Shown: positions 46,988 to 62,228, numbered from the stretch's first letter. The stretch: DNA of 64,000 nt from Candidatus Kaiserbacteria bacterium RIFCSPLOWO2_01_FULL_51_21 (GCA_001781435.1 MFLV01000011.1:11268-75267), one strand, 5' to 3'. Program-made: numbers and translations. The notes: generated from the sequence alone by a model not told the origin.

Positions 46988-47289
46988 ATTTTCAAAGGTG
47001 AGTGGCGATGAGGTTGCAAAGGCAGTACTTAGTATAGGCAGGCTTTCGTTTTTGTAAAACTTCCTCAAAAAGCCCGAATGTGTTCATAAGGTGTGCATAA
47101 CGTGTGAACACTGTGAAAAGCGCTTACTGGGGTTTACCCCGTTAGAAGTAGGGCGCGAACATGGTTTTGTGGGTAAAGAAAACAGGTAGACCTCCCCGGG
47201 TAACAAAGAGATTCGCTGTTAAAACTAACTGCGTCCGCGACTTCTAATGGGGTTTACGCGATACGCTAAATACGGTATGGTATCTTTGT

Positions 47290-49174: not shown

Positions 49175-49224
49175 GGTACGAATAGTTCTATTCGTAATTC
49201 TTAATTCGTGCTTCGCTATTCGCT
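49175..49224. repeat. TACGAAT/ATTCGTA heptamer repeat between convergent jag and the T4SS-like cluster
   Basis: ggtacgaatagttctattcgtaattcttaattcgtgcttcgctattcgc. Confidence 0.6.
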
Positions 49225-50451
49225 TCCAAGCTCAAGGCTCCAGAGGGTGCCGTCGTTTTTATTTTTGAAAAACACGTACCGGTCATCAGGACTTATACTT
49301 GGGTCGACGACATCAATGGTTGTGTTGCTTTGGTCGCTAAGTATCCCGAGGAGCGTTGAGTTTCCTGAATCAAGCTCAATTTTCCAAAGATTGTCAACGA
49401 AGGAAACAGATCCTTGATACCACAAATCAGGATACGTGCCCTCGGGAATTTCTGCCGGGACGGCGCAAAACAGAACCGTGTCCGATAACGTGCTCCACGC
49501 GCACTTTTCGAGAGGGAGGGTGTTAAGGGGCAAGGCAGCTATCTCTTTTGTTTTTGTGTTGAGATTTTTAAGACTTATGCCGCCATATCCGCTCTCCGCA
49601 AACACGACGCGAGAAAGGCTTCGGTTGGCGATTGCTGTAAGTCCCGGAACGTTTCCTAGTACCGAGGTAAGCGTCTTTGAAGTGGTGTTTATGAAATAGA
49701 GAAAGCCCGGTGTCTCCCCCGATGGTTTTGAGGAGAGCATGATCGTACTGGTTGCCGGCCAGCTTACGAGCCATTCTTTTAAAGGTGAAGAAAAAAGAAG
49801 CGTTTTCTTTGCCCCGTTTGGCTGCGATGTTGTGACATCCCCGCCTTCCCCGTTCTCTAAAACATACGCAAGGGTTCCTCCGGGCGAAAGTGTAACGCTT
49901 AGGATATTGCGAGGCAAAAAAGTGCCCGCAAGCTCCCTCTCGGTTGTCCCCGTGGCGATAGCCCCCGAAAAAGTGACGATACTCTCTTCATCAGTATCCA
50001 AATATTGCAATACTGCCCCGCTTCCACCGGGAAGCCACAGCGCGCTTTGAACTTTGGGTATTGTGGTGTTGCTTATCCGCTTTGCTTCTCCAGAAGAGAC
50101 TGAAACACTATACACATGCCCGGTGGCCCTCTCCATATAGAGAACCTGGTATTCCTGGGAATCTTTGAGAGGGAGAAACCCCGCAACGGGTACGGATGTC
50201 AGTTGGCGCAGTTTCTGGACAGAAGAAAAAGAAGTCTCTTCGGTTGTTGAAGAGCCCTGTGTCGAGGAGGTGTCAGAGGAAAAGATGTTTGGCCCTTGGC
50301 CAAAAGGGAAGAAGTCAAAACGGCTTCCGGAGGTTCCTGGCGTGGTGGTTTTGTTCGTTTGCAAATAATAGATGCCAACTATCCCAAGCACAAGGAGGAA
50401 AAAAACAACAGCTATAATAATTATGGTTTGACGTGACATATTAAAAACCAA
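49216..50451 (-). CDS. Membrane-anchored beta-propeller-like protein (hypothetical, T4SS-like cluster)
   Basis: N-terminal TM IIIIAVVFFLLVLGIVGIYY, an S/T-rich linker and repeated beta-strand-rich blocks. Confidence 0.4.
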   Translation of the reverse strand: MVFNMSRQTIIIIAVVFFLLVLGIVGIYYLQTNKTTTPGTSGSRFDFFPFGQGPNIFSSDTSSTQGSSTTEETSFSSVQKLRQLTSVPVAGFLPLKDSQEYQVLYMERATGHVYSVSVSSGEAKRISNTTIPKVQSALWLPGGSGAVLQYLDTDEESIVTFSGAIATGTTERELAGTFLPRNILSVTLSPGGTLAYVLENGEGGDVTTSQPNGAKKTLLFSSPLKEWLVSWPATSTIMLSSKPSGETPGFLYFINTTSKTLTSVLGNVPGLTAIANRSLSRVVFAESGYGGISLKNLNTKTKEIAALPLNTLPLEKCAWSTLSDTVLFCAVPAEIPEGTYPDLWYQGSVSFVDNLWKIELDSGNSTLLGILSDQSNTTIDVVDPSISPDDRYVFFKNKNDGTLWSLELGSE

Positions 50452-50971
50452 CTCCTCCAGTTTTTGGGTCGACGCATGTCTGGCTCCCTCCTTTAATATT
50501 TACCTGTACAGTACCACCAGCCTCGTCACAGTTTTTTTTAAGAGTATCTAGTTTGAGAATATTGTTGTTTTGGGTATCTAGGGGTTTCGCGGGTTCTAGG
50601 TTAAGCGGCACGCTTCCTATACTTAAGTTGAGGATTGATGGATTAATGGCATTGAGTAACAGAAAAGAGCCCAGAAGCAGAAGAAGTCCTAGAATCGCAG
50701 AGACAATTTTATCTCGCCCTTCGCTTTTACTGCTAATGGATTCCCCTCCCATATACTGAAATCCCCCGATGCCGATCATAATAACCGCGAGAAAGGCCGC
50801 GACACCGATGGAAATCTGGAACAGGCTTTGTACAAACCCGCCGACGTTGTCGTTTGTGTAAGTGACGCCGGGAAGTCGCTCAAGCGGAACATACTCTGTT
50901 TGAGCTTGCGCATAAAGAGCGGTGGTAAGAAGCAGAAGCACAATTATTAAGAATGGACGAGCGTATTTCAT
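50441..50971 (-). CDS. Pilin-like protein (VirB2/TrbC-type candidate) with a C-terminal extension
   Basis: Signal peptide MKYARPFLIIVLLLLTTALYAQA and two hydrophobic helices (ISIGVAAFLAVIMIGIGGF; ILGLLLLLGSFLLLNAI). Confidence 0.35.
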   Translation of the reverse strand: MKYARPFLIIVLLLLTTALYAQAQTEYVPLERLPGVTYTNDNVGGFVQSLFQISIGVAAFLAVIMIGIGGFQYMGGESISSKSEGRDKIVSAILGLLLLLGSFLLLNAINPSILNLSIGSVPLNLEPAKPLDTQNNNILKLDTLKKNCDEAGGTVQVNIKGGSQTCVDPKTGGVGF

Positions 50972-51984
50972 TTCTTTGAACCAAAGGAAACGGTGAGACT
51001 CCTGCTTGCCGATTGTAGAATTTGTTTGAGATTTTGGACGACAAGAGCAAGGGTTGCCGTGCCGCTTCCTTCAGCGGTTTGCCGAAGGGTCACGCTTCCT
51101 TTTTTACCCTCCTCTGTGGCAACGGGCATTCCGTTGAGTGTCCACTGATAACGGAGTGCGCCGCTTGTCCTTTCTTTTGCGCTCATAAAATAAGGGACTG
51201 CAACAATGCGGCTCTCCGAGCCACTTAAGAAAAACTCTTTTTGAAGAGCGGTATTAAATTGAATACCCAAAAGAGGGTCATCTTCGTATAAAACCACCTC
51301 TGGAGCCGCGGCTCCGATAATCGCCGCGCCGCTCCCCCTCACCGCGCCGTCGGCAGTCGCGATGTCGACGAAAACGCGTACCGAATCGTTAAGTTTTGGC
51401 CCGTCAATGGTAACGGAGCTTCTCCCGCGTCCCGACTGATTGCCCAAGACCGTAGTGTTGCGCCGCCACGTGTAGATAAGCGTTCCCGGGGAAGCTTCTT
51501 TTCCGGAACTTACCACAAGATGAGGAATCGCCGTCACCATAACCGGTGCGTCCGAAGCGGCAAGCGCCTTGCCTTGGTAGAAAGGCGGCGTGTAAGAGAT
51601 TGCTTGCCAAAGGACGTCAACTGTGGAGATAGTAAGTGTCACCGCGGCAGAAACAGGCGCGCCGCTTGGCTCTGTCACCGCGACCGATATGAGAAGTCGT
51701 GTGCCTACCACGCCGGCCACGGCCGTGGTGTTTTTAACACCAACTCCTGAGGCGCCGCGCTTGCCGTTTATGGTCCAGATGATGGTGGAGCGGTCAAGGT
51801 CAATCGAAGCGCTCTGCAGATGAATGAGGACCTGCGCTCCCGGTGTTGGATTTTCTGGACTTGCGACAATCTCAACCGGGCTCAAGCCCGTCGTTTGCGC
51901 TTGCGTTACCGTGCCCGGAGCAAAAGCGCCGCAGGCCGCGAGCATAACAAGGAGAAAAAAGTTTTGCATTTGGCGTCTGGTCAT
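50968..51984 (-). CDS. Secreted hypothetical protein (T4SS-like cluster)
   Basis: Signal peptide MQNFFLLVMLAACGAFA. Confidence 0.4.
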   Translation of the reverse strand: MTRRQMQNFFLLVMLAACGAFAPGTVTQAQTTGLSPVEIVASPENPTPGAQVLIHLQSASIDLDRSTIIWTINGKRGASGVGVKNTTAVAGVVGTRLLISVAVTEPSGAPVSAAVTLTISTVDVLWQAISYTPPFYQGKALAASDAPVMVTAIPHLVVSSGKEASPGTLIYTWRRNTTVLGNQSGRGRSSVTIDGPKLNDSVRVFVDIATADGAVRGSGAAIIGAAAPEVVLYEDDPLLGIQFNTALQKEFFLSGSESRIVAVPYFMSAKERTSGALRYQWTLNGMPVATEEGKKGSVTLRQTAEGSGTATLALVVQNLKQILQSASRSLTVSFGSKK

Positions 51985-53852
51985 AATTTTTGAGGCAAGG
52001 GGTTTGCAATGATGGGCTTGACCGGAAGTTCTTTCCCCTGTGAAAAATCAAGTTCGGTTTTTGCTTTTTTGATGGCGAGGAGCTGTGAGGGGTCGGACGT
52101 GATGATTTGATCTTCAGTATACGAGGCGATGACTTTAATTGCCACATGTTTAAGACCGGCGAAGAAGATTCCCTCCCCGACGTCTGATTCCAAGAGAAGA
52201 TATTTTTCTTCATCAGTGAGATTGAACGTGTGCTGGATAACGTCAATGGAGGAAGGCGATTGTTTGAGCAGAAGTTGCAGCGAAGAGTTCGAAATCATTG
52301 GAAGGCCGTAGGGCGATTTCAAAAAGTCGTCAACGTCCTGCGTTATTGTCGCGAGCCCGAGATAGTATTTGCGTCCGCGTTTCGCCATGCTGTAGAGAAA
52401 GTTTGCCGTATCCTCCGCTTTCATCATCCACCATGCCTCGTCAATCACCAAAAGGCGTTTTTTGAGCTCTTTGCGAATCGCCGTCCAGATAAAATGCGTG
52501 ACAATGTACATGGCGACGGGTTTCAGTTCGTCTTCCATATCGCGCACCGAAAACACCACGAATTGCTTGTTAATATCAACATTTGTCGGGCGGTTGATGA
52601 ATCCCGCCCATGTGCCTTTGGTGTATTTAGAAAGTCGCTGAACAAGCGATTCCCCGCCCTCCATGCCGGCAAGCACGAGTTCAAAATCAGATATAAGCGG
52701 CGGCTCAACCGAGGTAAAGTCACTGTCGCCGGTAATGTCTTTGAGCGCGTAGGTTTCGGTGATTGCCCGGTCGATGATAGCGTCTTCTTCCGGCGTGAGC
52801 CCCCCGAGCATGATACGAAAGAGCCCCACAAGATTCACAATGTTTGAGCGCAAAACGTCCGTGGCGGATTCGTCTTCCCGCGGAATAGGAAGGTCAAACG
52901 GGTTGATATGGTGCTCCGAGGAGAGCGAAATGTTGAAATATCTCCCGCCAACCGCCTCAGCGAGGTAATCGTATTCCCGCTCCGGGTCGATCACGATGAC
53001 CTCGGTGTCGAACATAAGCGAGCGTAGAATTTCCAACTTCATCGCATAGGATTTCCCGGAACCGGATTTAGCGAACACCACCGAGTTGTAATTCTCAAGC
53101 GAGAAGCGGTCGAAGAGGACAAGCGAAGAGTTGTGCCTATTAATGCCGTAGAGAATACCGCGGTCGGCAGTGAGGTCGAAGGAAATAAAAGGGAAGACGC
53201 TTGAAAGGGGCGAGGAGTTGAGTTTCGAATGCACCCCGAGTATGTCGGTCGCCGTCGGCAGGACGCTTTTGTACCCTTGCTCTTGCTGAAAGAGCGCCGG
53301 CTTTACATACACGAGCTTTGATTCGAGCATAGAGCGGATTTCAGACTCCGCTTTGTCGAGCTCCTCCAGATTAGAGGCGTAAATGGAAACGTATATTCCC
53401 ACTTCAAAAATACGCTCCTGCGCCTGCTGAAGCTGGTCGCGCAGCTGCTCAAGGTCGCGATACGCGGTGTCAAGTTTCGGGTCGCGCACCATTCCCTTCT
53501 CTTCCCGAAGGCTGATTTGGCTTTGCACCTCGGCTACCTTTTTCTGAAATTGCCGCAGTATTGTCGCGGTATCAATAGGGTGGATAAAGATAGAAATGTC
53601 GAAGACTTTTTCAAGATTGATAATCGGCGAAAACCAGTTATCGGTGAGAAAGCGCGGATACGAGATGACAAAGAACGTGCGGACAACCTTGTCGCCGAGG
53701 TTCATTTCTCGCGGGGAAACTTTCAGCGCCGAGGGGGCAATGATGTCTTTCAGTTCAAGCACTCCCGCTTTATAAATTTCTTCGGGGAGAATTGGCGAAA
53801 GGCTCGGCACCGTCGTTGTTTTTTTTGATTTGAAAATATCTAAGAGTGCCAT
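51981..53852 (-). CDS. virB4: VirB4/TrbE-family type IV secretion ATPase
   Basis: Walker A VVFAKSGSGKSYAMK and Walker B RLLVIDEAWWM, with a VirB4-like N-terminal domain. Confidence 0.85.
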   Translation of the reverse strand: MALLDIFKSKKTTTVPSLSPILPEEIYKAGVLELKDIIAPSALKVSPREMNLGDKVVRTFFVISYPRFLTDNWFSPIINLEKVFDISIFIHPIDTATILRQFQKKVAEVQSQISLREEKGMVRDPKLDTAYRDLEQLRDQLQQAQERIFEVGIYVSIYASNLEELDKAESEIRSMLESKLVYVKPALFQQEQGYKSVLPTATDILGVHSKLNSSPLSSVFPFISFDLTADRGILYGINRHNSSLVLFDRFSLENYNSVVFAKSGSGKSYAMKLEILRSLMFDTEVIVIDPEREYDYLAEAVGGRYFNISLSSEHHINPFDLPIPREDESATDVLRSNIVNLVGLFRIMLGGLTPEEDAIIDRAITETYALKDITGDSDFTSVEPPLISDFELVLAGMEGGESLVQRLSKYTKGTWAGFINRPTNVDINKQFVVFSVRDMEDELKPVAMYIVTHFIWTAIRKELKKRLLVIDEAWWMMKAEDTANFLYSMAKRGRKYYLGLATITQDVDDFLKSPYGLPMISNSSLQLLLKQSPSSIDVIQHTFNLTDEEKYLLLESDVGEGIFFAGLKHVAIKVIASYTEDQIITSDPSQLLAIKKAKTELDFSQGKELPVKPIIANPLPQKL

Positions 53853-53855
53853 AGA

Positions 53856-53960
53856 ATTAGAAGTACGAATAACGAATAACGAATAACGAACAGATGCTTG
53901 GAGCGATTCTTAACTTGGCTTGTTTTTTTTCGTAATTCATACTTCGTAATTCGTACTTCA
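53856..53960. repeat. TACGAAT/ATTCGTA heptamer repeat, both arms (inverted) around a T-run, upstream of virB4
   Basis: gaagtacgaataacgaataacgaataacgaa ... tgtttttttt ... ttcgtaattcatacttcgtaattcgtacttc. Confidence 0.65.
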
Positions 53961-54611
53961 TTGAGCCTCCGGGAGGCTCAAGGGCCGTTCCAGTTCGCCG
54001 GGATTAAAAATTTTGTAATAGAGCTCGATAATTTCTTCCGTCCCAAGAACGACACTGCGAATACCACAACGCGTGAGTCCCTGCTCGACAATTGAGGCGC
54101 GCTGTTCAAGCTGGGTGCGGTGTTCCTCGAATGCGGCACTTTCGTCTGCCGCGGCTGTTTTTGACGGCTTTCCAAAAGGCAAAAGGTTTCCGAGCCCCCC
54201 TTTTTTAACGGAAATGAGCGGCGGCGTATAGGGAACGATAACAAAGAAACTCTTCGACATAATGTTCGCCTCTTCAGTAAAGGCTTTTATAAAGTCGATG
54301 TATTCCCGCACCTGGATTTTCATGAGGTCGCTCCCCTGGGCGCGATGCCGCTCTTCGAGGAGCGCGATATAGGGGCGGATGTCGAGTTCCCGCGACTGGA
54401 TGAAAATTTGAATGGAAAACTCGAGCGAGTTAAGAAAGTTCTGAAACTGCAGAAGTATGGCGGATTGCTCGTCCTGGGATTTAAGCGCGAAGTTTAAAGA
54501 AGAGGTCATCAACATCATCCGCAGTCCCCCGTCTTTGAGCACCACGACGCCGTCTCGCACCTCGCGAATCGGAACGAATTCCTGGGTTGTGTTTGTTTTG
54601 GCAGTAGCCAT
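53958..54611 (-). CDS. Hypothetical protein (T4SS-like cluster)
   Basis: ORF only. Confidence 0.4.
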   Translation of the reverse strand: MATAKTNTTQEFVPIREVRDGVVVLKDGGLRMMLMTSSLNFALKSQDEQSAILLQFQNFLNSLEFSIQIFIQSRELDIRPYIALLEERHRAQGSDLMKIQVREYIDFIKAFTEEANIMSKSFFVIVPYTPPLISVKKGGLGNLLPFGKPSKTAAADESAAFEEHRTQLEQRASIVEQGLTRCGIRSVVLGTEEIIELYYKIFNPGELERPLSLPEAQ

Positions 54612-54612
54612 G

Positions 54613-54644
54613 AAGTACGAATAACGAGTTACGAATTACGAATA
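54613..54644. repeat. TACGAAT heptamer repeat, single arm
   Basis: gaagtacgaataacgagttacgaattacgaat. Confidence 0.6.
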
Positions 54645-55027
54645 GGAAAAAAGGTGCGGGACTTTTTAATTAAACCATTACAGATTTTACTTACTACCGT
54701 TGTTTGATTTTCAATGGCCAGATACTCTGCTTCTAAAAGGTATCCAATATCTTTTGCAATGAGTAATTGATTTTGTACTTCAGTAAGAGAACCGAGCGCC
54801 ACGGCGTAAAATTGGGTTTTCTCTTTATAAGAAGAGCGGCTGAATCCTTCCGCAAGGTTTGAAGTAATAGAAACAACAGCTCGACGTAACTGGCTCGTTA
54901 ATCCAAACTGCTCTTCTTTGGGAAAGTTTTTTGTAATTTTGTAAACCATAATAACGAGACGATGCCCCTCTCGCCATACGCGAAGGTCTTTAAACGATTC
55001 TATTTTTTGCTCCTTCTCGTAATTCAT
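54629..55027 (-). CDS. Four-helix-bundle protein (23S rRNA intervening-sequence protein family)
   Basis: LRVWREGHRLVIMVYKITKNFPKEEQFGLTSQLRRAVVSITSNLAEGFSRSS...LGSLTEVQNQLLIAKDIGYL is typical of this family. Confidence 0.7.
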   Translation of the reverse strand: MNYEKEQKIESFKDLRVWREGHRLVIMVYKITKNFPKEEQFGLTSQLRRAVVSITSNLAEGFSRSSYKEKTQFYAVALGSLTEVQNQLLIAKDIGYLLEAEYLAIENQTTVVSKICNGLIKKSRTFFPIRNS

Positions 55028-55060
55028 TTTCGTAATTCTTAATTCGTTCTTCGTAATTCG
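55028..55060. repeat. ATTCGTA heptamer repeat, single arm
   Basis: tttcgtaattcttaattcgttcttcgtaattcg. Confidence 0.6.
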
Positions 55061-55479
55061 TTTTCCTTCGTTCCCGCGTACATGCTTTCCTGAATATCGA
55101 GGCTCCAGGAAAGGTCTTTCAACTTATTCTGCGAAAGCCGCGGTATCGAAAGGAGGGGGGGAATGTTTTTTTCTTGGCCGGCTTTTTGGGGAAGCGTCTT
55201 TTGTTCATGTTTCCAGAGATATAATTTTTTTGAAAAAGCGTAGTAAAATGCCGCTTCAAGCGCATAGATGAACGGACGATTGTTTATTTTATAAAAGGCA
55301 AGGGCGGCGCCGAAAAGAATAATCGGAGCTCCAAGGAGAAGGGCAAGATAGAGTCCGAGGAAGGTGTAGAGGATTACCACAAAACCGCCTGCGCCGGCGA
55401 GGTAGACAAACTGCCGGAATGTTAACGGTCCGATGATTTTATCTTCAATCTCAATAAATTGTGGTACTTGGAATTGCAT
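55039..55479 (-). CDS. Small two-TM membrane protein (VirB3/PrgI-like candidate)
   Basis: FVYLAGAGGFVVILYTFLGLYLALLLGAPIILFGAALAF. Confidence 0.4.
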   Translation of the reverse strand: MQFQVPQFIEIEDKIIGPLTFRQFVYLAGAGGFVVILYTFLGLYLALLLGAPIILFGAALAFYKINNRPFIYALEAAFYYAFSKKLYLWKHEQKTLPQKAGQEKNIPPLLSIPRLSQNKLKDLSWSLDIQESMYAGTKENELRRTN

Positions 55480-55485
55480 ATTGGT

Positions 55486-55590
55486 CAGAAGTACGAAGTA
55501 CGAGTTACGAAGTACGAGTGAAGAAAGAATCGGATGTTTTTTTGAGGTTTCATTTTTATTCGTAATTCGTACTTCTTAATTCGCTATTCG
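55486..55590. repeat. TACGAAT/ATTCGTA heptamer repeat, both arms (inverted) around a T-run
   Basis: cagaagtacgaagtacgagttacgaagtacgagtgaag ... tgtttttttgaggtttcatttttattcgtaattcgtacttcttaattcgctattcg. Confidence 0.65.
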
Positions 55591-56321
55591 ATAGGTTCTT
55601 TGTACGGGTCCACGGTATATGTTTGGGGTTGCTTTGGCTTCTGCGCGGTCTCCATTGCCTGATTCCCTATTCCTGATTCCTGCTTCACTTGGACATTCTC
55701 TCTCGGTAATCGAAACATTTCCAGTAGCTTCGTTTCGGCAATCGTACCGGTCGGCAAATTCGCCGGCACCTCCGCTTTTTTCTGTTCAATTCGTAATTCT
55801 GGTACCTGCGGTTCTGCTGCGGTGGACAGTTCTTCAATCTCCCGGAGTAATTTTTTTCGCTCGATAGTTAGTTCGGGCGGCACTTCGGGTATTTTTGATA
55901 TTTGAGGAATATCCTTTGTGCGCCCAAGCGCTCCAACGGTTGTCTGCGGCGCGAAGACCTCCGGCGCGTTCGCAAGCTCTTGTTCAGCATCCACTTTTGC
56001 ATCTTCCTCAAACATACGACGCAGGGCCTCCCGAATAGGCAAGAAGATTTCCTCATTAACGCTTCCCGTGATAAGTTGCGCTTGCGCGGGCGGAATGTCG
56101 AGCTCACGAGTGAGAGTCTTTGTGAAATCATTTGGTGATTCAAGCCCGAGCATGACGAAGAGCGTTTCGTTCTCAAGTGCCCCCGCCTGGTCAACGTGGA
56201 GCTGATACTTTTTAGCAATGTTTTGGAGCCGCGGTCGCAGGTCGACCGCATTAATGGCATCTTTTATTTCTTTTGGAACCTGCGCGAGTCGTTCTTTTAT
56301 GAGCTGTTGTGTTTCATCCAT
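55584..56321 (-). CDS. Hypothetical protein (T4SS-like cluster)
   Basis: ORF only; charged, P/E-rich C-terminal half. Confidence 0.4.
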   Translation of the reverse strand: MDETQQLIKERLAQVPKEIKDAINAVDLRPRLQNIAKKYQLHVDQAGALENETLFVMLGLESPNDFTKTLTRELDIPPAQAQLITGSVNEEIFLPIREALRRMFEEDAKVDAEQELANAPEVFAPQTTVGALGRTKDIPQISKIPEVPPELTIERKKLLREIEELSTAAEPQVPELRIEQKKAEVPANLPTGTIAETKLLEMFRLPRENVQVKQESGIGNQAMETAQKPKQPQTYTVDPYKEPIE

Positions 56322-56323
56322 AG

Positions 56324-58423
56324 TTATGTGGTTTTAGGTTCTTCTTTTGGTTCTTCGTTTGCTTTTTCTTCGTCCGCAGCTTGTTTTGAGGCTTCAGTGA
56401 CGGCATCAAAAACTTTATCCTTCGGGCTTTTCTTTAGGTTTGCCCGTATTCTAGCGGCGGCGGCACGTTTGGTTGGATTGACGAAGCGGGTGGAGCCAAA
56501 CATATTGGTCTCTACGATTCGGGCATCTGCCTCTTGTCGTGCCCTGCCGCGGCTCTTGATTGCATCCTCAATATTTTTAAGAATAGTGTTGCTTTCTTCT
56601 CTTTTCTTCTTAGCCTCGTCGTATTCCTTTGTTCGCTCGTCCACTTTTTGGTTTGCGCCTTGAAGTTCAGTGTATTCTTTTCTTTGCCGTGCGGCCATTT
56701 CGCCGATGTCCGTTCTTACCGCATTGAATGCCTCTTGAGCCGCTTTCTGTGTTTCCCTTGCAGTTTTCAGTTCTTCCGTAGCCACTTTTTCAAGTCGTAG
56801 TAATTCTGGCAGTTCTGAACGTTTATCTTCTGCTTTCTGCCGGTCTTCTCTCTCTTCTTTTGTTTCTGTCTCTTCGCCGATATATTTGCTGAATTTCAGG
56901 GCCGCCTTCACGTCATCTTCCTTGATCTTGGCGTACCCGCCAGCTACGCCTCCACCTAGAGTAAGCCCCGATATTTTTGCCGCCTCTTTTGTTACGCCGA
57001 GACGGCGTGCATCCATACTTCCTCCCGCAACCTTGAGAAGCCCTTTCGCGGTTGGGCGGGCAATAATCTGCGAGATGTCTTTTGCAAGTCCGCTACGCAT
57101 CGGCTTCCCTTCTTTATTTTCGCCAAGAGCAAGGCGTTTAACCAATCGGCTCTGAGAGAGCGCACTTGCTCCGAGACCGAGCGTGTGTCGCCCAACGAAT
57201 CCGGCAGTGCCCAAAACCTTGTTGAATCCAAAGCTTGTAACCGCGGCACCAAGCTCTCCGCTAAGATCTTTTGTTACCCTGACAGCAATGTATAAAAGGC
57301 CTACGATAACTGCCCAGTTGAAAAAAGCATTTACCGCAAAACCTTGTTCACCTTGTTCGTTAAAGCCGGGAATCTTAGATTGTGCGCCCACAATAAAACC
57401 GCTGTTTGCCACAATAACGATAACCGTAATGAGGAATACGAAGAGGGGTGCCACCGCCGCCTGGCTAACGAGAGTCGTCAGCCACCGGTCGAAGTGTTTT
57501 CTTGTTTTGGGGAGAATGGCGAAGAAAAAAGCTGCGGGAGAGAGAACCATGAGAAAAACAAAAGCGATGAGTCGAGCGATAAGAACAAACGCTCCCATGA
57601 AGAATACCCATGCCGTGATGAGATTGAGGGTGATTTGGAGAATAAGAATTATTGCGGTATTTCCCCTATCGAGCTTCGCGGTAGGAATACTGCCAAACAT
57701 GTCTTTTACTCCCATTCTGCTAAGAAGTGTCGTGCCAACGCTTGGCCTTGTGCCGGCAGTGGCGTTAGTTGCCGCGATCATGCTGTTGTTGAACTGGTTT
57801 GCCACCAAATTTGACGCGTCAATAACAACCCTGGTGATAGGCAGACTGAAGTTAATGAGGAGAGCGACGATAATGAGGCGCGGCAGGAGTGCTTTCATGC
57901 CATAGCCCGAAACCCGCAGGATGGTGGCAATGGCAATCGTAAGGAGCGCAAAGATGAAGAAGAGATTGGTGGTGTCCCGGACGATCTTCCAGCCGTTTTC
58001 TATGGCAAGGACGGCTCCAGGGTCTGCGAGAAAATTGTTTCCGACGGTGAAGGCAATGACGTAGTCAAAAACATAGATGGCAATATAAACAAGGGAAGCG
58101 GAGGCTACCTGGAGTAGCCATAAGATTCCGTTTAAAATGTTTAAACCAGCCCAGCTAAAGAATCCAGTCATACCTGTACCTATGCCTAGCGACTCTGCTC
58201 CCCCCAGAACTGCTATTGCGGCAATAAAAGGAAACCAAAAGACTGCCTCAGCATGTTTGGTCGGGGTGAAAATACCGCCAACAACCACCGCTACACACAC
58301 CGCAATAAGAATTGGGCGGCGGTACACGAGGAAACGTGCACTAAGCCATAAAGAGACTTCACGGTACCGCTCTGACGTTTTTTCGAAAAAGTGTGTCATG
58401 GCGTGGGGGGAAATGCTTGGCAT
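56324..58423 (-). CDS. Large polytopic membrane protein, VirB6/TrbL-like candidate, with a charged coiled-coil C-terminal tail
   Basis: At least eight hydrophobic helices followed by a K/E-rich tail of about 200 aa. Confidence 0.5.
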   Translation of the reverse strand: MPSISPHAMTHFFEKTSERYREVSLWLSARFLVYRRPILIAVCVAVVVGGIFTPTKHAEAVFWFPFIAAIAVLGGAESLGIGTGMTGFFSWAGLNILNGILWLLQVASASLVYIAIYVFDYVIAFTVGNNFLADPGAVLAIENGWKIVRDTTNLFFIFALLTIAIATILRVSGYGMKALLPRLIIVALLINFSLPITRVVIDASNLVANQFNNSMIAATNATAGTRPSVGTTLLSRMGVKDMFGSIPTAKLDRGNTAIILILQITLNLITAWVFFMGAFVLIARLIAFVFLMVLSPAAFFFAILPKTRKHFDRWLTTLVSQAAVAPLFVFLITVIVIVANSGFIVGAQSKIPGFNEQGEQGFAVNAFFNWAVIVGLLYIAVRVTKDLSGELGAAVTSFGFNKVLGTAGFVGRHTLGLGASALSQSRLVKRLALGENKEGKPMRSGLAKDISQIIARPTAKGLLKVAGGSMDARRLGVTKEAAKISGLTLGGGVAGGYAKIKEDDVKAALKFSKYIGEETETKEEREDRQKAEDKRSELPELLRLEKVATEELKTARETQKAAQEAFNAVRTDIGEMAARQRKEYTELQGANQKVDERTKEYDEAKKKREESNTILKNIEDAIKSRGRARQEADARIVETNMFGSTRFVNPTKRAAAARIRANLKKSPKDKVFDAVTEASKQAADEEKANEEPKEEPKTT

Positions 58424-59943
58424 TCATTGAGCTGTTGAACAGTGGTTGGGTCGAGCGCGCTCGTCGTTGATTGAATGTCTGCGCTGGCTTGCTGAGCGTC
58501 GGCGACATCGGCCTGCGTGTGGATGAAGTGGCCGCTCAAGAGCCCTGCGTACTGGTTCGCCACCTGATTGAGGGTCGTCGGGTCGTTTGTGCTTGCCGCG
58601 ACGCTATCGAGCTGCTGGAGAAGTGCGATATTAGTATCGGCGCGGGTGATGGCGTCTTTAAGCGCCGTAAGGGTTGGGGTAAGCGCCGCAAGGGTGCCTG
58701 ACGCCGCGATAATACGGTCGTTCGCCACAGAGAGGTCGGAGTCTGAGAGCAGTCCCGATTGGATTTTGTTGTTGTAGCAAGAAATGACGTTTTCAATGAG
58801 CCGCGTTGAATTCGAGAGCACGGCAAGCGAGAATCCTTGAACCGCCTGGTAGTCCTGCTCAATTGCGATTGAAGCCTGAATGTTTGCTCGGAGTGCCGTT
58901 CTCGTTGAGCTAAGGACTTGGTCGGTGGAGACAGTCGTCGCCGAGCCGAGCCGGGAGGTGTAGGAAGAGCGTCCTCCGGTGCCTGAACTGCTTAAGCCGA
59001 AAAGTCCCTGGGCTCCCGTAAGCGCTTGCTTGGCGATCTGGCCCATGAGCGCACTGATGATCTCGTCGATTTCGTCGGCAAGCTCGAGCTGGCGCTGGCC
59101 GCTCCCAAGCGTATTGTTAAGTTGCTCCTCAATGACTGCCCCGGGAGTTTGGGTCACAATGTCGCAGACGCGAACCGAAGACCCGTCGCCGATTTCCGTG
59201 ACACTCGTGCCCGTGTTTGCTGACGGCGCTTGTTGAGACGGGAATACCTGGCAGTTTTTTTCTTGGCTGAAAGAAAGGAACCCTCTGCCAAAATCAAGTT
59301 TTGCTTTCTCGAGGAATCCAGCGCCTGATATCCGGGCATCGAGCGCCGCTTGAGTCATGACATAGGTGCCATAAGGGTTTGAGAAAGGGTCCATAGTGAG
59401 GGTAGACCACTGTTCAAGGGTGGTGAGACGAACGTTGCTGTCGGTTAAAAATCCCTCTATGTTGCTGACCACCGTAGTCAAGCGGCACTTGACTCTCTCT
59501 CGCGACCGCGAGGTCAAAAGAGAAATCTGGATTTGGAGCTTGAACGGACTGCACAGAAATGCCAGATCGGAGCCGAAAATATAGGCTCCCGCCGCCTTGT
59601 CAGCGACGTCGAGAAGAAATCCTTCAAGGTCGGTAACGAACGCCGGGTTACCCTGAAATCCGGAATTGATCCAATCGACGATGCTTTGCGTGATGGATCG
59701 AAGGAGCATTTTCTCGATTCCATATAAAATGCCGTCAAGAATATTTTCTTTAGTATCAAGAGCGGTCGTAGCTTTTAATATCCCGGCAGTTGGAGGTGAA
59801 AGGACGGTTTTCTGAACATCGGTCGGGACGAGATTCCCCCCGCCTCCGATACCAGGGATACTTTGTGCCAAAACAAGCTGGGGTGCGGCTAAAAGCAGGG
59901 CGAGGAGGAGTGAAAGGGCCTTACTGTGCCAGGAGTTTTGCAT
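58396..59943 (-). CDS. Secreted hypothetical protein (T4SS-like cluster)
   Basis: Signal peptide LSLLLALLLAAPQLVLAQS. Confidence 0.45.
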   Translation of the reverse strand: MQNSWHSKALSLLLALLLAAPQLVLAQSIPGIGGGGNLVPTDVQKTVLSPPTAGILKATTALDTKENILDGILYGIEKMLLRSITQSIVDWINSGFQGNPAFVTDLEGFLLDVADKAAGAYIFGSDLAFLCSPFKLQIQISLLTSRSRERVKCRLTTVVSNIEGFLTDSNVRLTTLEQWSTLTMDPFSNPYGTYVMTQAALDARISGAGFLEKAKLDFGRGFLSFSQEKNCQVFPSQQAPSANTGTSVTEIGDGSSVRVCDIVTQTPGAVIEEQLNNTLGSGQRQLELADEIDEIISALMGQIAKQALTGAQGLFGLSSSGTGGRSSYTSRLGSATTVSTDQVLSSTRTALRANIQASIAIEQDYQAVQGFSLAVLSNSTRLIENVISCYNNKIQSGLLSDSDLSVANDRIIAASGTLAALTPTLTALKDAITRADTNIALLQQLDSVAASTNDPTTLNQVANQYAGLLSGHFIHTQADVADAQQASADIQSTTSALDPTTVQQLNECQAFPPTP

Positions 59944-59945
59944 GA

Positions 59946-60935
59946 TTAATATATCTGGTTTGCAAAAAAGTCAGTACCCGACTCTCCTTCTAGAAAAGTG
60001 ACTCCTCGGCTTTTGGCGTAGGCATACAATGTCTCGAGGGAGACTCCGAGCTCGGAGGAGGCGGTTTTGTATAGTTCGAGTCCTGCAAGCGCAGCCACGG
60101 GGTCGCTGAATAACAAACGCATTTCATCAATGGCGGTTGCAATCGCTTCGGCGTTGTTGATGAGCGAAAGGTGCGCTTGGGCTGCGCCTTTAGGTACGGG
60201 CATTTTTAAAAGAGCGCCGATAACTTTGGTGTAGCTTTCAACGATAATCGAAAGGTCGTCGAGTCTTTTTCCGTCGTTATTTGAAAGAGCTTCAGCGACA
60301 ATAACTATTTCGTGGTCAACGTTCGGTTTTCCGTATCGATTCACAATATCGCCGAGCGCATTGGCATACGCATGAATCGCGGCAGTACTTTCGTCGTTTT
60401 GGATAATAAGATTGCTTGCCGCGTACGTTTTTGGTTGAGGAACGGATACTCTTTGAAGAGCGGCGGTTGCAAGTGAAGTGGAGGTTTCTGAATCGACAGG
60501 AGTGCCTTGCTGTCGAAGGCTTAAATATTTTGCGAATACATCGCGAGCAAGTTTATCTGTTATGGTGGGGGACACTCCCGCGCCCTCTCCTTGCACAGCT
60601 CCCTCAGTGACATCAAGTTTATCGTTCGGTCCTTTTACCAGTGGGTCTCTACCCTCCCGCACCTCCGCACCATCGTCGGTGCCGTCTCCATCAGTGTCTC
60701 CTGCCTGCGGATTAGTGCTCCAGAGCGTTTCTTCCCAGTCGGGGAGGCCGTCAGCGTCTGTGTCCTTTAGAGTATCTTGGCCGATAGAAACACCCTGAGT
60801 GTCGCTTCCGATAAGTGCTAGTCGGAATGTTTCCTTCGGCGCATACTGTGTGCGGTAGAACACAAAACCGATGAGGCATATTGCCGCAAACGCAAAAAGC
60901 GCAAGGGTCCAATTTTTGCTCGGTAAAAAGTTCAA
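59946..60935 (-). CDS. Membrane-anchored protein with DxDxDG Ca-binding-like motifs
   Basis: N-terminal TM. DTDADGLPDWEE...GDTDGDGTDDG. Confidence 0.45.
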   Translation of the reverse strand: MNFLPSKNWTLALFAFAAICLIGFVFYRTQYAPKETFRLALIGSDTQGVSIGQDTLKDTDADGLPDWEETLWSTNPQAGDTDGDGTDDGAEVREGRDPLVKGPNDKLDVTEGAVQGEGAGVSPTITDKLARDVFAKYLSLRQQGTPVDSETSTSLATAALQRVSVPQPKTYAASNLIIQNDESTAAIHAYANALGDIVNRYGKPNVDHEIVIVAEALSNNDGKRLDDLSIIVESYTKVIGALLKMPVPKGAAQAHLSLINNAEAIATAIDEMRLLFSDPVAALAGLELYKTASSELGVSLETLYAYAKSRGVTFLEGESGTDFFANQIY

Positions 60936-61048
60936 GGTAATATTCGGCTGTCTATAAAGTATAGCAGTAGCGCGGGCTATTCTATAGGTTTTTTGTGTGT
61001 ATACGATTCTTTGTTGCGGGGTTCTATAAGGGTGTATACTTTGTAGGC

Positions 61049-61408
61049 ATGAGAGTCTCTTTCATTTTTTGTCTTATAACGGCGCTCGTGGTACTTTCTG
61101 TTCCTTTCTCTGCCCTTGCCCTTATCAGTGGAAGAGCCTTAAGTGGAGGAGTCTTACCTTTTGGCGGTTTTGTTACCTCAATTACCTATTGTAATCAGGG
61201 GGTACTGGAGACCATCAGGCCTGCCGGAAGTTCCCCAAGCACTATTATGTGGCTCTACCCAAGCCCCTTGTATCTTTACAATATGAGTGCCCCACCACAT
61301 GTTGGTCAATGGCAACTCGGCCTTTTGGGTGGGATTGCCTCATGCTATGTTGGTAAAATTTATAGAGGATCTGGTCCAACAATCAAATTTTACGGCTCAA
61401 GTAAATGA
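61049..61408 (+). CDS. Small secreted hypothetical protein
   Basis: Signal peptide MRVSFIFCLITALVVLSVPFSALA. Confidence 0.35.
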   Translation: MRVSFIFCLITALVVLSVPFSALALISGRALSGGVLPFGGFVTSITYCNQGVLETIRPAGSSPSTIMWLYPSPLYLYNMSAPPHVGQWQLGLLGGIASCYVGKIYRGSGPTIKFYGSSK

Positions 61409-61439: not shown

Positions 61440-62228
61440 TCATTTAAGGGAAATGCCCAGTTTAAACCACTTTTTGAGAGAAAGTTCCTCTGCGCGGGCT
61501 TTTGGAGATATACCGAGGGTCTGAAATACCTGCTGGACTTTCCCTTTACCAAAGAAACCGCCTAGATTGCCGGAGAGGAGCTTGCGTTTGTGGGCAAATC
61601 CTATTCGAAGTACCTCGAAAAAGTGCTTCTCGGAGAATCGGGTAAAGTTTTTCTTGGAAATACCATCAATTCGCAAGATGGCCGAATCAACGGCAGGCAC
61701 GGGGCTGAAGCTTCCCCTTTTTACCGTAGCTACATAGTATGGTGTTCCGTATGCTTTTATAGAAAGCGAGAGCAAGGATTCTTTTCTATCGCGGGCGATC
61801 CGTTCAGCGACTTCTTTTTGTACCAGGAGAACCATCTGCTTCGGATACACTGAACTTTCTAAAAGTTTTCGTATGAGTGCTCCCGTGATGTAGTACGGAA
61901 TATTTGCAACGACACTATACTTCCCCGCCGACAGTCCCATTGTAGCTTGGTCAATTTGAAGTGCGTCGCCGTGTATGATAACCAACTGTTTCGCGGAAAT
62001 TTCTTTTGCGAATTGTTTTGTAAGCGGCTCGATAAGACGGTCGTCTTTTTCAATGGCGATAACTTTTCCCATACGTTTCAAAAGTTCTCTCGTGAGTATT
62101 CCGCCACCCGGTCCCACTTCAAGCACGATATCTTTATTGGTGAGACGCGCGGCATCGGCAATTTTTCCCGCGATGGTGGACGACGTAAGAAAATGCTGCC
62201 CCAACGATTTTTTCTTTATAAACAACAC
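61440..62228 (-). CDS. rsmA: 16S rRNA (adenine1518/1519-N6)-dimethyltransferase
   Basis: LGQHFLTSSTIAGKIADAA...VLEVGPGGGILT. Confidence 0.85.
   Translation of the reverse strand: MLFIKKKSLGQHFLTSSTIAGKIADAARLTNKDIVLEVGPGGGILTRELLKRMGKVIAIEKDDRLIEPLTKQFAKEISAKQLVIIHGDALQIDQATMGLSAGKYSVVANIPYYITGALIRKLLESSVYPKQMVLLVQKEVAERIARDRKESLLSLSIKAYGTPYYVATVKRGSFSPVPAVDSAILRIDGISKKNFTRFSEKHFFEVLRIGFAHKRKLLSGNLGGFFGKGKVQQVFQTLGISPKARAEELSLKKWFKLGISLK

What the first reader, a model, noticed from the sequence alone, without database searches (positions are those of the whole stretch)
49216..61408. Twelve-kb minus-strand type IV secretion-like cluster lacking relaxase and coupling protein, built mostly from unrecognisable secreted or membrane proteins
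A clear VirB4 ATPase (Walker A/B) sits with a 699-aa polytopic VirB6-like protein, a pilin-like two-helix protein with signal peptide, a small two-TM protein, four secreted or anchored proteins of unknown fold, and a beta-propeller-like membrane-anchored protein. One of the unknown proteins carries DxDxDG Ca-binding motifs. No VirD4, relaxase, VirB11 or VirB9/10 homolog is recognisable by eye, which argues against a conjugation module. The cluster may instead be a pilus or contact apparatus of the kind implicated in episymbiont-host interaction in small-genome bacteria. Most of its components would be new families.
Basis: partly seen in the sequence, partly recalled or inferred. Interest (0 to 1): 0.6.

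Follow-up and report, generated by a model that had tools for sequence, protein, structure and literature searches.

The report
Patescibacterial origin-proximal type IV secretion system
This is the relaxase-less, pilin-containing type IV secretion gene cluster that most Patescibacteria (here a Kaiserbacteria/Paceibacteria genome) carry beside their replication origin; it is real and biologically important, but it was described in 2023-2025 and its function is still unknown.

Summary
Window 49216-60935 (minus strand) is one tightly packed 11-gene cluster. It has a bona fide VirB4 ATPase of the Gram-positive (CD1110/MPF_FATA) type and a separate TrsD-like protein. It also has a PrgI/VirB3 two-TM protein, a weak but consistent VirB6/TrbL polytopic protein and a VirB2-type pilin.

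Five further conserved proteins match no Pfam or NCBIfam family. One of them has TSP3 calcium repeats and one a weak TolB-like signal. No relaxase, VirD4, VirB11 or VirB9/10 is in the 64-kb window.

The cluster lies between ksgA and jag-yidC-rnpA-dnaA-dnaN. The same gene order recurs in 80 Paceibacteria species genomes, where VirB4 is 76-85% identical and DnaA about 60%.

This matches the Patescibacteria-clade T4SS of Quinonero-Coronel et al. 2025 (2,407 of 3,035 genomes; no relaxase; near dnaA/ksgA). Tn-seq showed the counterpart to be essential in Southlakia epibionticum (Wang et al. 2023).

Added here:
- p338 is three Ig-like domains, not VirB8.
- p411 is weakly TolB-like.
- p515 is a tentative VirB5-like tip protein.
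- p245 ends in an invariant DPY(R/K)E tail.
- The pilins carry hypervariable extensions.

The parts
59946..60935 (-). p329: N-terminal TM anchor, two DxDxDG (bacterial TSP3) calcium-binding repeats, then a helical domain. First gene of the cluster.
   Evidence: TM at 7-30. DTDADG at 58 and DTDGDG at 80. TSP3_bac in 17 of 36 orthologues, best 2.8e-10. Found in 37 of 80 related loci at the same position.
58396..59943 (-). p515: Sec-signal protein with a conserved central domain (WINSGFxGxPAF motif, conserved Cys) and a C-terminal long helical bundle. Tentative VirB5-like tip or minor-pilin candidate.
56324..58423 (-). VirB6/TrbL-like polytopic membrane protein (699 aa) with a variable charged C-terminal tail.
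   Evidence: TrbL 3.9e-5, or 23.9 bits against a cutoff of 25.9. CD3337/EF1877 mobilome membrane protein 6e-4. About 7-8 hydrophobic segments. The conserved part is residues 100-470. TrbL is seen in 5 of 32 orthologues.
55584..56321 (-). p245: protein with no TM or signal peptide. It has a conserved ~105-aa helical N-domain, a variable Pro/Glu-rich linker and an invariant C-terminal DPY(R/K)E(P/S)I tail.
   Evidence: No TM or signal peptide. Alignment. The tail motif occurs once in the window and in 64 of 80 loci; 63 of 66 occurrences lie within 12 aa of a stop, all those printed being just upstream of prgI. No Pfam or NCBIfam hit.
55039..55479 (-). PrgI / VirB3-like two-TM hairpin protein.
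   Evidence: Pfam PrgI 2.4e-10, or 41.3 bits against a cutoff of 27. Hydrophobic hairpin at 23-65. Present in 78 of 80 loci at 50% identity.
54629..55027 (-). Four-helix-bundle protein (23S rRNA intervening-sequence protein family). A sporadic insertion, not a T4SS part.
   Evidence: PF05635 8.4e-37 and TIGR02436 9e-35. Found in only 15 of 80 loci, 13 within the cluster at three different slots and two elsewhere.
53958..54611 (-). TrsD-like protein. It corresponds to the extra N-terminal module of CD1110-type VirB4 proteins.
   Evidence: NCBIfam TrsD/TraD 1.1e-4. It matches CD1110 VirB4 profile positions 2-113 (1.2e-4) and Mycoplasma-ICE VirB4 positions 100-233 (6e-9). Present in 79 of 80 loci at 63% identity. 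Not homologous to VirB4's own N-terminus.
51981..53852 (-). VirB4 ATPase of the MPF_FATA (CD1110) type.
   Evidence: NCBIfam NF045971 368.7 bits against a cutoff of 325, profile positions 185-733. Walker A at 263-268 and Walker B at 467-472. 4ag5 at 5.8e-43. hhalign to pCF10 PrgJ 99.7%. 76-85% identical in 80 Paceibacteria species.
50968..51984 (-). p338: N-terminal signal/anchor helix followed by three tandem Ig/FN3-like beta-sandwich domains.
   Evidence: AF2 pLDDT 93, pTM 0.79. Foldseek PDB hits are Ig-domain arrays (Hoc, NCAM, SiiE, SbsB) at about 1e-8, with no NTF2/VirB8 hit. Present in 77 of 80 loci directly after virB4.
50441..50971 (-). VirB2-type T4SS pilin: signal peptide, two hydrophobic helices and a ~60-aa Cys-containing C-terminal extension.
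   Evidence: TrbC 9.7e-6, T4SS_pilin 1.4e-3 and Mbov_0395 pilin-like 8.3e-6. T4SS_pilin in 35 of 41 orthologues. The core is conserved and the extensions are hypervariable, with proteins of 140-580 aa.
49216..50451 (-). p411: N-terminal TM anchor plus a probable TolB/PD40-like beta-propeller. Last gene of the cluster.
   Evidence: TM at 1-33. The family profile hits 12 TolB sequences in the PDB, 5e-5 to 4e-3. PD40 in 4 of 44 orthologues. Present in 66 of 80 loci.

Best explanation
This is the chromosomal, vertically inherited Patescibacteria-clade type IV secretion system, in its Paceibacteria layout. It derives from the monoderm (MPF_FATA) conjugation machinery but has lost the DNA-processing half.

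Shown here:
- A CD1110-type VirB4 ATPase, with its TrsD-like module encoded separately.
- A PrgI/VirB3 membrane hairpin, a VirB6-like polytopic protein and a VirB2-type pilin.
- All of these co-oriented and tightly spaced, many overlapping, in one block beside oriC.
- Five lineage-conserved accessory proteins that match no curated family.

Inferred mechanism:
1. VirB4, docked through VirB3 onto a VirB6 platform, extracts the Sec-inserted pilin from the membrane and polymerises a pilus or conduit.
2. p515 may prime or cap that pilus as a VirB5-like tip protein.
3. The membrane-anchored extracytoplasmic proteins form the wall-spanning scaffold or adhesive part, in place of VirB8, VirB1 and the Gram-positive adhesins. 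These are p329 (calcium-binding), p338 (3 x Ig) and p411 (TolB-like).
4. The apparatus serves contact-dependent exchange with a host cell rather than conjugation.

The direction and cargo of transport are unknown.
For: Family assignments:
- VirB4 is above the NCBIfam cutoff, with Walker motifs and strong matches to a Firmicute VirB4 structure and to PrgJ.
- PrgI is above the Pfam cutoff.
- TrsD.
- The pilin family matches T4SS_pilin in 35 of 41 orthologues.
- VirB6 matches TrbL weakly.

Not a mobile element:
- GC is 0.496 against 0.501 for the rest of the window.
- No relaxase, T4CP or integrase is among the window ORFs of 250 aa or more.
- The order pcrA-ksgA-p329-p515-VirB6-p245-PrgI-TrsD-VirB4-p338-pilin-p411-(jag,yidC,rnpA)-dnaA-dnaN recurs in 80 species genomes.
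- VirB4 is 80% identical across these genomes, against DnaA at 60% and DnaN at 44%. This indicates strong purifying selection.

Literature:
- The same system is reported in 2,407 of 3,035 Patescibacteria genomes. It nests in MPF_FATA, carries TrsD, PrgI, VirB6 and VirB2, mostly lacks a relaxase, and lies near dnaA, dnaN, rnpA and ksgA in Paceibacteria (PMC12102498).
- The T4SS genes and the pilin array are essential for epibiotic growth of Southlakia (PMC10633639).

Structure-based points: p338 is three Ig-like domains at pLDDT 93.
Against: - No experiment exists for any Paceibacteria T4SS. The essentiality data come from a different class (Saccharimonadia), whose cluster has different accessory genes: an NTF2/VirB8-like protein, an M23 peptidase and a six-pilin array.
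- VirB6 is below Pfam's cutoff.
- No VirB8-like or VirB1-like protein was found in this cluster.
- The VirB5-like call for p515 fails profile-profile comparison.
- Clade membership of VirB4 was not tested by phylogeny.
- A VirD4-like gene may exist elsewhere in the genome. The survey found such genes in most Patescibacteria.
- Pilus formation by any monoderm T4SS has not been seen.
Confidence: 0.8

Rival explanations
1. Import machine. The T4SS takes up DNA, nucleotides or other macromolecules from the host cell, as the H. pylori ComB system and the archaeal Ced system do. This would compensate for missing biosynthesis.
For: Neither a relaxase nor a T4CP is needed for import. ComB likewise has VirB2/3/4/6 without VirD4. 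VirB4 shows a partial CedB match of 2e-8. The authors of PMC12102498 and PMC11665869 favour or raise this reading because comEC is dispensable in Southlakia while the T4SS is essential.
Against: There is no direct evidence. No DNA-binding or nuclease component is recognisable in the cluster. ComB needs ComEC for membrane passage, yet comEC is dispensable in Southlakia.
Confidence: 0.3
2. Effector export. The machine delivers proteins into or onto the host cell without a canonical coupling protein, as the Bordetella Ptl and Brucella VirB systems do.
For: T4CP-less protein-secreting T4SSs exist. p245 has no signal peptide, is encoded in the cluster, and has a disordered linker and an invariant C-terminal peptide. 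That is compatible with either a substrate or an adaptor. Wang et al. suggest protein export as one option.
Against: No effector has been identified. A monoderm needs no T4SS to release Sec substrates. The p245 tail has no known precedent as a T4SS signal.
Confidence: 0.3
3. Adhesion-only organelle. The system builds a VirB2-type pilus with variable surface-exposed extensions for host recognition and attachment, and transports nothing.
For: The pilin core is conserved while its N- and C-terminal extensions are hypervariable, giving proteins of 140-580 aa. Some p515 homologues carry lectin (F5/8 type C) and Ig domains. p338 is an Ig-domain array like those of adhesins.
Against: The window already encodes type IV pilus genes (PilB, PilM), and T4P are the demonstrated adhesion and motility organelle in Saccharibacteria. 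The extreme conservation of VirB4, TrsD and VirB3 suggests more than adhesion.
Confidence: 0.15
4. Conjugative element. The cluster is the mating-pair-formation module of an ICE or an integrated plasmid, or a decaying remnant of one.
For: VirB4, PrgI and TrsD are closest to Gram-positive conjugation proteins.
Against: No relaxase, T4CP, integrase or repeats were found in the window. Composition is native. The position between ksgA and yidC/dnaA is identical in 80 species. All genes are intact and VirB4 is more conserved than DnaA. Only 109 relaxases were found in 3,035 Patescibacteria genomes.
Confidence: 0.03

Closest known systems
Patescibacteria-clade T4SS as surveyed by Quinonero-Coronel et al. 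2025 (Microb Genom; PMC12102498), Paceibacteria layout
   Same: It has the same component set (VirB4, TrsD, PrgI/VirB3, VirB6, VirB2-like pilin) and no relaxase or T4CP near virB4. It has the same neighbourhood (dnaA, dnaN, rnpA, ksgA). The dataset includes many Kaiserbacteria and RIFCSP genomes.
   Different: Nothing differs in kind. The five Pfam-less accessory genes match none of the families the survey names in the sections read. Here they receive fold or motif descriptions.
Southlakia epibionticum ML1 T4SS (SEML1_0006-0019; Wang et al. 2023, Cell; PMC10633639)
   Same: It is origin-proximal, resembles Gram-positive T4SSs and has VirB2-type pilins. No coupling protein or relaxase is recognised in the cluster.
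   Different: The Southlakia cluster has a six-pilin array, an NTF2 (VirB8-like) protein and M23 peptidase/lysozyme genes. This locus has one pilin gene and no VirB8- or VirB1-like gene. Instead it has p329, p515, p245, p338 and p411. Essentiality was tested only in Southlakia.
MPF_FATA conjugative T4SSs of Firmicutes (pCF10 Prg/Pcf; pGO1/pSK41 Trs; CTn2 CD1110 family)
   Same: VirB4 is of the CD1110 type, with 99.7% hhalign probability to PrgJ. It shares the PrgI family VirB3, a separate TrsD as in pGO1, and a monoderm architecture without VirB7/9/10.
   Different: There is no PcfC/VirD4, relaxase, PrgK hydrolase, PrgL/VirB8 or PrgB adhesin. No cluster profile other than VirB4 matches pCF10 PrgC-PcfC. 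A VirB2-type pilin is present, which Gram-positive systems lack. The locus is chromosomal and non-mobile.
MPF_T VirB/D4 systems (A. tumefaciens, R388, pKM101)
   Different: There is no outer-membrane core (VirB7/9/10), VirB11, VirD4 or VirB8. The p515 family shows no profile-level similarity to VirB5.
H. pylori ComB DNA-uptake T4SS
   Same: It is a T4SS with VirB2/3/4/6-like parts that works without a relaxase or VirD4. This provides a precedent for import.
   Different: ComB is a diderm system with ComB7/8/9/10, and it hands DNA to ComEC. No sequence relationship beyond the generic VirB families was tested here.

Membership tests
Patescibacteria-clade T4SS (MPF_FATA-derived) | VirB4 ATPase with intact Walker A/B, of the monoderm FATA type | tested here: met
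   NF045971 CD1110 family scores 368.7 bits against a cutoff of 325. Walker A is at 263-268 and Walker B at 467-472. 4ag5 matches at 5.8e-43.
Patescibacteria-clade T4SS (MPF_FATA-derived) | VirB4 falls in the monophyletic Patescibacteria clade of the VirB4 tree | not tested
   No phylogeny was run. Indirect support: at least 587 relatives among species genomes. All named titles among the best 80 are Patescibacteria lineages (some read only 'uncultured bacterium' or 'bacterium'), and all 80 are 76-85% identical.
Patescibacteria-clade T4SS (MPF_FATA-derived) | TrsD homologue associated with virB4 | tested here: met
   The 217-aa ORF immediately upstream scores TrsD/TraD 1.1e-4 and matches CD1110 profile positions 2-113. 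It is present in 79 of 80 loci.
Patescibacteria-clade T4SS (MPF_FATA-derived) | PrgI/VirB3 homologue near virB4 | tested here: met
   PF12666 scores 41.3 bits against a cutoff of 27.
Patescibacteria-clade T4SS (MPF_FATA-derived) | VirB6-like polytopic membrane protein near virB4 | tested here: inconclusive
   TrbL scores 23.9 bits against a cutoff of 25.9 (E 3.9e-5). It appears in 5 of 32 orthologues at E of 0.01 or better. Topology and position fit.
Patescibacteria-clade T4SS (MPF_FATA-derived) | VirB2-like pilin gene near virB4 | tested here: met
   TrbC 9.7e-6. T4SS_pilin (PF18895) in 35 of 41 orthologues, best 4.7e-10. A signal peptide and two hydrophobic helices are present.
Patescibacteria-clade T4SS (MPF_FATA-derived) | No relaxase or T4CP close to virB4; chromosomal site near dnaA/dnaN/rnpA/ksgA (Paceibacteria) | tested here: met
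   All window ORFs of 250 aa or more were scanned or identified, and none is a relaxase or VirD4. Flanking genes are ksgA and jag/yidC/rnpA/dnaA/dnaN.
Conjugative MPF_FATA T4SS (pCF10 / pGO1 / CTn2 type) | Relaxase and VirD4/TcpA-type coupling protein belonging to the element | tested here: not met
   Neither is in the 64-kb window. The rest of the genome could not be searched.
Conjugative MPF_FATA T4SS (pCF10 / pGO1 / CTn2 type) | VirB8-like (NTF2) protein and VirB1-like cell-wall hydrolase in the cluster | tested here: not met
   There are no Pfam or NCBIfam hits. p338 is an Ig-domain array, not NTF2. No cluster profile matches PrgK or PrgL (low sensitivity). p411, p329 and p245 were not folded.
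Conjugative MPF_FATA T4SS (pCF10 / pGO1 / CTn2 type) | Location on a mobile element (plasmid or ICE) | tested here: not met
   The site is conserved and syntenic in the core chromosome of 80 species. GC is native and there is no integrase.
VirB5 / TraC minor pilin family (for p515 only) | Sequence membership in PF07996 / VirB5 profile | tested here: not met
   There is no Pfam hit in p515 or in 50 homologues. hhalign of the p515 profile against a 36-sequence VirB5 profile gives 7.9% probability.
VirB5 / TraC minor pilin family (for p515 only) | Secreted protein with an elongated three-helix bundle, encoded next to virB6 | tested here: inconclusive

The most novel reading that the evidence does not exclude
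The Paceibacteria version of the T4SS may carry a complete but unrecognised pilus-tip and docking module:
- p515 would be a highly diverged VirB5 homologue. Its C-terminal domain is exchangeable (a helical bundle here, lectin plus Ig domains in some relatives), which would set host specificity.
- The pilin's hypervariable extensions would decorate the filament.
- p245, with no TM or signal peptide, would replace the missing coupling protein as an adaptor or be the conserved substrate. Its invariant C-terminal DPY(R/K)E(P/S)I peptide is what suggests this.

This would be the first VirB5-type tip protein, and a new recruitment signal, in a monoderm T4SS.
Probability: 0.2. Interest if true: 0.6.

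Novelty: already known. Interest (0 to 1): 0.3.

Why it matters
This T4SS is among the most conserved envelope machines of Patescibacteria. Here its ATPase is more conserved than DnaA. In the one species tested, the system is essential for growth on a host. Even so, its cargo and direction of transport are unknown. The system is therefore a central open problem for understanding how ultra-small episymbionts live off other cells.

This particular locus adds no new kind of system. It is a clean, complete Paceibacteria example. It could serve as a reference for the five conserved accessory families, for the tentative VirB5-like protein and for the invariant p245 tail motif.

Tried and rejected
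- **p338 as VirB8/PrgL-like.** Rejected. The confident AF2 model is three Ig-like sandwiches, and Foldseek finds only Ig arrays.
- **TrsD as a duplicate of VirB4's own N-terminal domain.** hhalign shows no similarity. TrsD instead matches the extra N-terminal segment of CD1110-type VirB4 profiles.
- **Cluster profiles against pCF10 PrgC-PcfC.** Each cluster family profile was compared by hhalign with the single pCF10 sequences. Only VirB4-PrgJ was significant. Sensitivity is low because the templates were single sequences.
- **p515.** Foldseek against the PDB found nothing below 1e-3. A PDB sequence-profile search found nothing meaningful. Pfam on 50 homologues gave only sporadic hits. Profile-profile comparison against VirB5 was negative.
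- **VirB6.** A phmmer search of the PDB found nothing.
- **Promoter and terminator scan of the cluster.** Counts were at chance level, so it was uninformative.
- **Conjugative-element reading.** Rejected on synteny, composition and the absence of a relaxase, T4CP or integrase.
- **The plus-strand ORF 60995-61408 as part of the system.** Rejected. It has a homologue in 1 of 80 loci and no family hit.

Full report
**Observation**

ORF listing shows a co-oriented minus-strand block from 49216 to 60935. Spacing is very tight:
- 4-bp overlaps at virB4/p338 and p338/pilin
- an 11-bp overlap at pilin/p411
- a 28-bp overlap at p515/virB6
- 2-bp gaps at p329/p515 and virB6/p245
- only two gaps of about 105 bp

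The block is bounded upstream by ksgA (61440-62228) and pcrA/uvrD. It is bounded downstream by jag, yidC and rnpA on the plus strand, and then by dnaA and dnaN. The locus therefore lies at the replication origin of a small genome. Its GC content (0.496) equals that of the rest of the window (0.501).

**Component identification**

HMM scans give:
- **VirB4 (623 aa).** It scores above the NCBIfam cutoff for the CD1110-family 'VirB4-like conjugal transfer ATPase', matching profile positions 185-733. The next best model is the Mycoplasma-ICE VirB4, then F-type TraC, then VirB4/CagE. The nearest solved structure is the Thermoanaerobacter VirB4 C-terminal domain (5.8e-43), against 6.5e-7 for R388 TrwK. 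hhalign to pCF10 PrgJ gives 99.7%. The Walker A and B motifs are intact.
- **The 217-aa protein upstream.** It matches TrsD/TraD and positions 2-113 of the same CD1110 profile. It is the detached N-terminal module known from pGO1-type systems. It is not a paralogue of VirB4's own N-terminus.
- **The 146-aa two-TM protein.** This is PrgI/VirB3, above cutoff.
- **The 699-aa protein.** It is polytopic and hits TrbL/VirB6 just under cutoff. The same weak hit recurs in orthologues.
- **The 176-aa protein.** It has a signal peptide and two hydrophobic helices, and it hits TrbC/VirB2 and T4SS_pilin. 35 of 41 orthologues hit T4SS_pilin.
- **The 132-aa gene between prgI and trsD.** This is a four-helix-bundle 23S-rRNA-IVP family protein.

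The other five proteins (p329, p515, p245, p338, p411) match no Pfam or NCBIfam family at the whole-protein level.

**What is absent**

Every ORF of 500 aa or more in the window is either a cluster protein (VirB4, the VirB6-like protein, p515) or a housekeeping gene: ArgRS, PolA, PilB, a PBP1A-like protein and PcrA. All other ORFs of 250 aa or more are either housekeeping genes or have no family hit. None is a VirD4, relaxase, VirB11 or integrase. This holds for the window only.

**Source and conservation**

p515 is 100% identical to a hypothetical protein of a Candidatus Kaiserbacteria RIFCSPHIGHO2 MAG, and p338 likewise.

A scan of one genome per GTDB species with VirB4 found at least 587 relatives. 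The best 80 are 76-85% identical, and every informative record title names a Patescibacteria lineage: Kaiser-, Campbell-, Taylor-, Nomura- and Adlerbacteria, Paceibacteria/Parcubacteria, and some auto-labelled Saccharibacteria.

tblastn of all window proteins against these loci shows one collinear order in almost every locus with enough flank: pcrA-ksgA-p329-p515-virB6-p245-prgI-trsD-virB4-p338-pilin-p411-(jag, yidC, rnpA)-dnaA-dnaN.

| Protein | Loci with a hit (of 80) | Median identity |
|---|---|---|
| TrsD | 79 | 63% |
| PrgI | 78 | 50% |
| p338 | 77 | 33% |
| p411 | 66 | 32% |
| VirB6 | 62 | 27% |
| pilin | 61 | 37% |
| p245 | 58 | 32% |
| p515 | 49 | 32% |
| p329 | 37 | 28% |

Many of the misses are truncated contigs or divergence below the tblastn threshold.

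VirB4 (median 80%) is more conserved in these genomes than DnaA (60%), PcrA (54%), KsgA (49%) or DnaN (44%). The four-helix-bundle gene is found in only 15 loci, 13 of them within the cluster at three different slots and two elsewhere. The plus-strand ORF 60995-61408 is found in one locus.

This is a vertically inherited core-genome locus under strong purifying selection. It is not a mobile element.

**Accessory proteins**

- **p338.** It folds with high confidence (pLDDT 93) into an N-terminal helix plus three tandem Ig/FN3-like sandwiches. Foldseek finds only generic Ig arrays such as Hoc, SiiE and SbsB. It is therefore not VirB8-like.
- **p411.** It has an N-terminal TM. Its family profile hits the TolB beta-propeller weakly but repeatedly, and PD40 repeats appear in a few orthologues.
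- **p329.** It has a TM and two DxDxDG loops that belong to bacterial TSP3 repeats, seen in 17 of 36 orthologues.
- **p245.** It has no TM or signal peptide. It has a conserved ~105-aa N-domain, a variable Pro/Glu-rich linker and an invariant C-terminal DPY(R/K)E(P/S)I tail. The motif occurs once in the 64-kb window and in 64 of 80 loci. In 63 of 66 occurrences it lies within 12 residues of a stop codon, in every locus printed just upstream of prgI.
- **p515.** It has a Sec signal and a conserved central domain that was poorly modelled. Its C-terminal three-helix-type bundle was modelled at pLDDT above 95.

**Is p515 VirB5-like?**

For:
- Two homologues pass Pfam's cutoff for DUF4141 at the mature N-terminus.
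  - DUF4141 proteins lie next to traJ (VirB6) in Bacteroides conjugative transposons.
  - CTnDOT TraI was reported to be homologous to VirB5.
  - The link from DUF4141 to TraI is my inference from gene order.
- A VirB5-like N-terminal [IVL]P[VIT]x[DE] motif occurs in 33 of 120 homologues. It occurs in 62 of 120 true VirB5 proteins and in 1 of 87 control proteins.
- Some homologues replace the C-terminal bundle with lectin and Ig domains.

Against:
- Foldseek finds nothing significant.
- Profile-profile comparison with a 36-sequence VirB5 alignment is negative, at 7.9% probability.

I rate 'VirB5-like' at roughly one in three.

**Pilin**

The pilin core is conserved: signal peptide, a Y.PLEPLPG-type motif and two helices ending in TINP.LL. 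The segments before and after the core are hypervariable, giving proteins of 140-580 aa. A few orthologues carry subtilase, VanY or 3D domains.

**Comparison with what is known**

Quinonero-Coronel et al. 2025 (PMC12102498) surveyed 3,035 Patescibacteria genomes. They reported:
- VirB4 in 2,417 genomes. 2,425 of these proteins, in 2,407 genomes, form a monophyletic clade nested in MPF_FATA.
- TrsD, PrgI/VirB3, VirB6 and VirB2-like pilins encoded near virB4.
- Almost no relaxases.
- T4CP homologues mostly far from virB4.
- In Paceibacteria, a neighbourhood of dnaA, dnaN, rnpA, ksgA and rpmH.

Their dataset includes many Kaiserbacteria and RIFCSP bins.

Wang et al. 2023 (PMC10633639) showed by Tn-seq that the corresponding cluster and its pilin array are essential for epibiotic growth of Southlakia epibionticum. 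They noted the missing coupling and relaxase proteins. Reviews describe the role as unknown, with effector delivery or import of DNA and nucleotides as the candidates.

The window's cluster meets every defining feature I could test. Two exceptions remain: the VirB6 score is sub-threshold, and I did not run the VirB4 phylogeny. The cluster fails the defining features of a conjugative MPF_FATA system, namely a relaxase, a T4CP, a VirB8/VirB1-like pair and a mobile context.

**Mechanism**

The component families and their conserved, operon-like arrangement are shown. The rest is inferred:
1. VirB4, with TrsD, docks through VirB3 on a VirB6 platform and extracts the Sec-inserted pilin to build a filament or conduit.
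2. p515 possibly acts as a VirB5-like primer or tip.
3. p329, p338 and p411 act as the extracytoplasmic scaffold or adhesive module.
4. p245 acts as a cytoplasmic partner or substrate.

The purpose would be contact-dependent exchange with a host. I cannot discriminate between import, export and adhesion only.

**Verdict**

The system is already known, and this is a typical Paceibacteria example. The added details on the accessory proteins are modest leads, not established findings.

Noticed in passing
window 55584-56321 (-); related loci L002-L080 just upstream of prgI: p245 has no TM or signal peptide and ends in an invariant DPY(R/K)E(P/S)I peptide after a variable Pro/Glu-rich linker. The motif occurs once in the window and in 64 of 80 loci, almost always within 12 aa of the stop codon. 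It could be a docking peptide or a secretion signal, and it is unexplained.
   Followed up: partly
window 50441-50971 (-); orthologues in L002-L066: The VirB2-type pilin core is conserved, but the N-terminal inserts and C-terminal extensions are hypervariable, giving proteins of 140-580 aa. Single orthologues carry Peptidase_S8, VanY or 3D (cell-wall-active) domains. This suggests surface display, or a substitute for the missing VirB1.
   Followed up: partly
window 54629-55027 (-): A four-helix-bundle (23S rRNA intervening-sequence protein / Avd-like) gene lies inside the T4SS operon. It is present in only 15 of 80 related loci: in 13 it lies within the cluster at three different slots (p245/prgI, prgI/trsD, trsD/virB4), and in two it lies elsewhere. 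It behaves like a sporadically inserted small gene.
   Followed up: partly
window 51981-53852 versus 45602-47068 and other flanking genes: Across the 80 related species genomes, VirB4 is about 80% identical and TrsD 63%. DnaA is 60%, PcrA 54%, KsgA 49%, and DnaN and YidC 44%. The T4SS ATPase therefore evolves more slowly than core replication proteins. The loci were chosen by VirB4 similarity, which inflates the gap somewhat.
   Followed up: partly
window 60995-61408 (+): A 137-aa ORF with a signal or TM segment and several Cys lies between p329 and ksgA on the opposite strand. It has no family hit and a weak homologue at the same position in only one locus (L042). It may be a lineage-specific small secreted protein or a spurious ORF.
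   Followed up: partly
window 34759-36480 (+) and 20231-21370 (-): Type IV pilus genes (a PilB-type T2SSE ATPase and PilM) lie in the same 64-kb window, so the genome has both a T4P and the T4SS. Two large ORFs near PilM (23405-24880 at 491 aa, and 24709-25635 at 308 aa) have no Pfam hit.
   Followed up: no
loci L046, L048, L056, L057, L058, L060, L068: In a subset of related genomes the order of the last two genes is swapped, giving p338-p411-pilin instead of p338-pilin-p411. This is a small rearrangement within an otherwise fixed layout.
   Followed up: no
homologues of p515 (P0051, P0102, P0104, P0115): Some family members replace or extend the C-terminal helical bundle with F5/8-type-C lectin, bacterial surface Ig-like, InlB B-repeat or Big_7 domains. 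This is consistent with an exposed binding module.
   Followed up: partly
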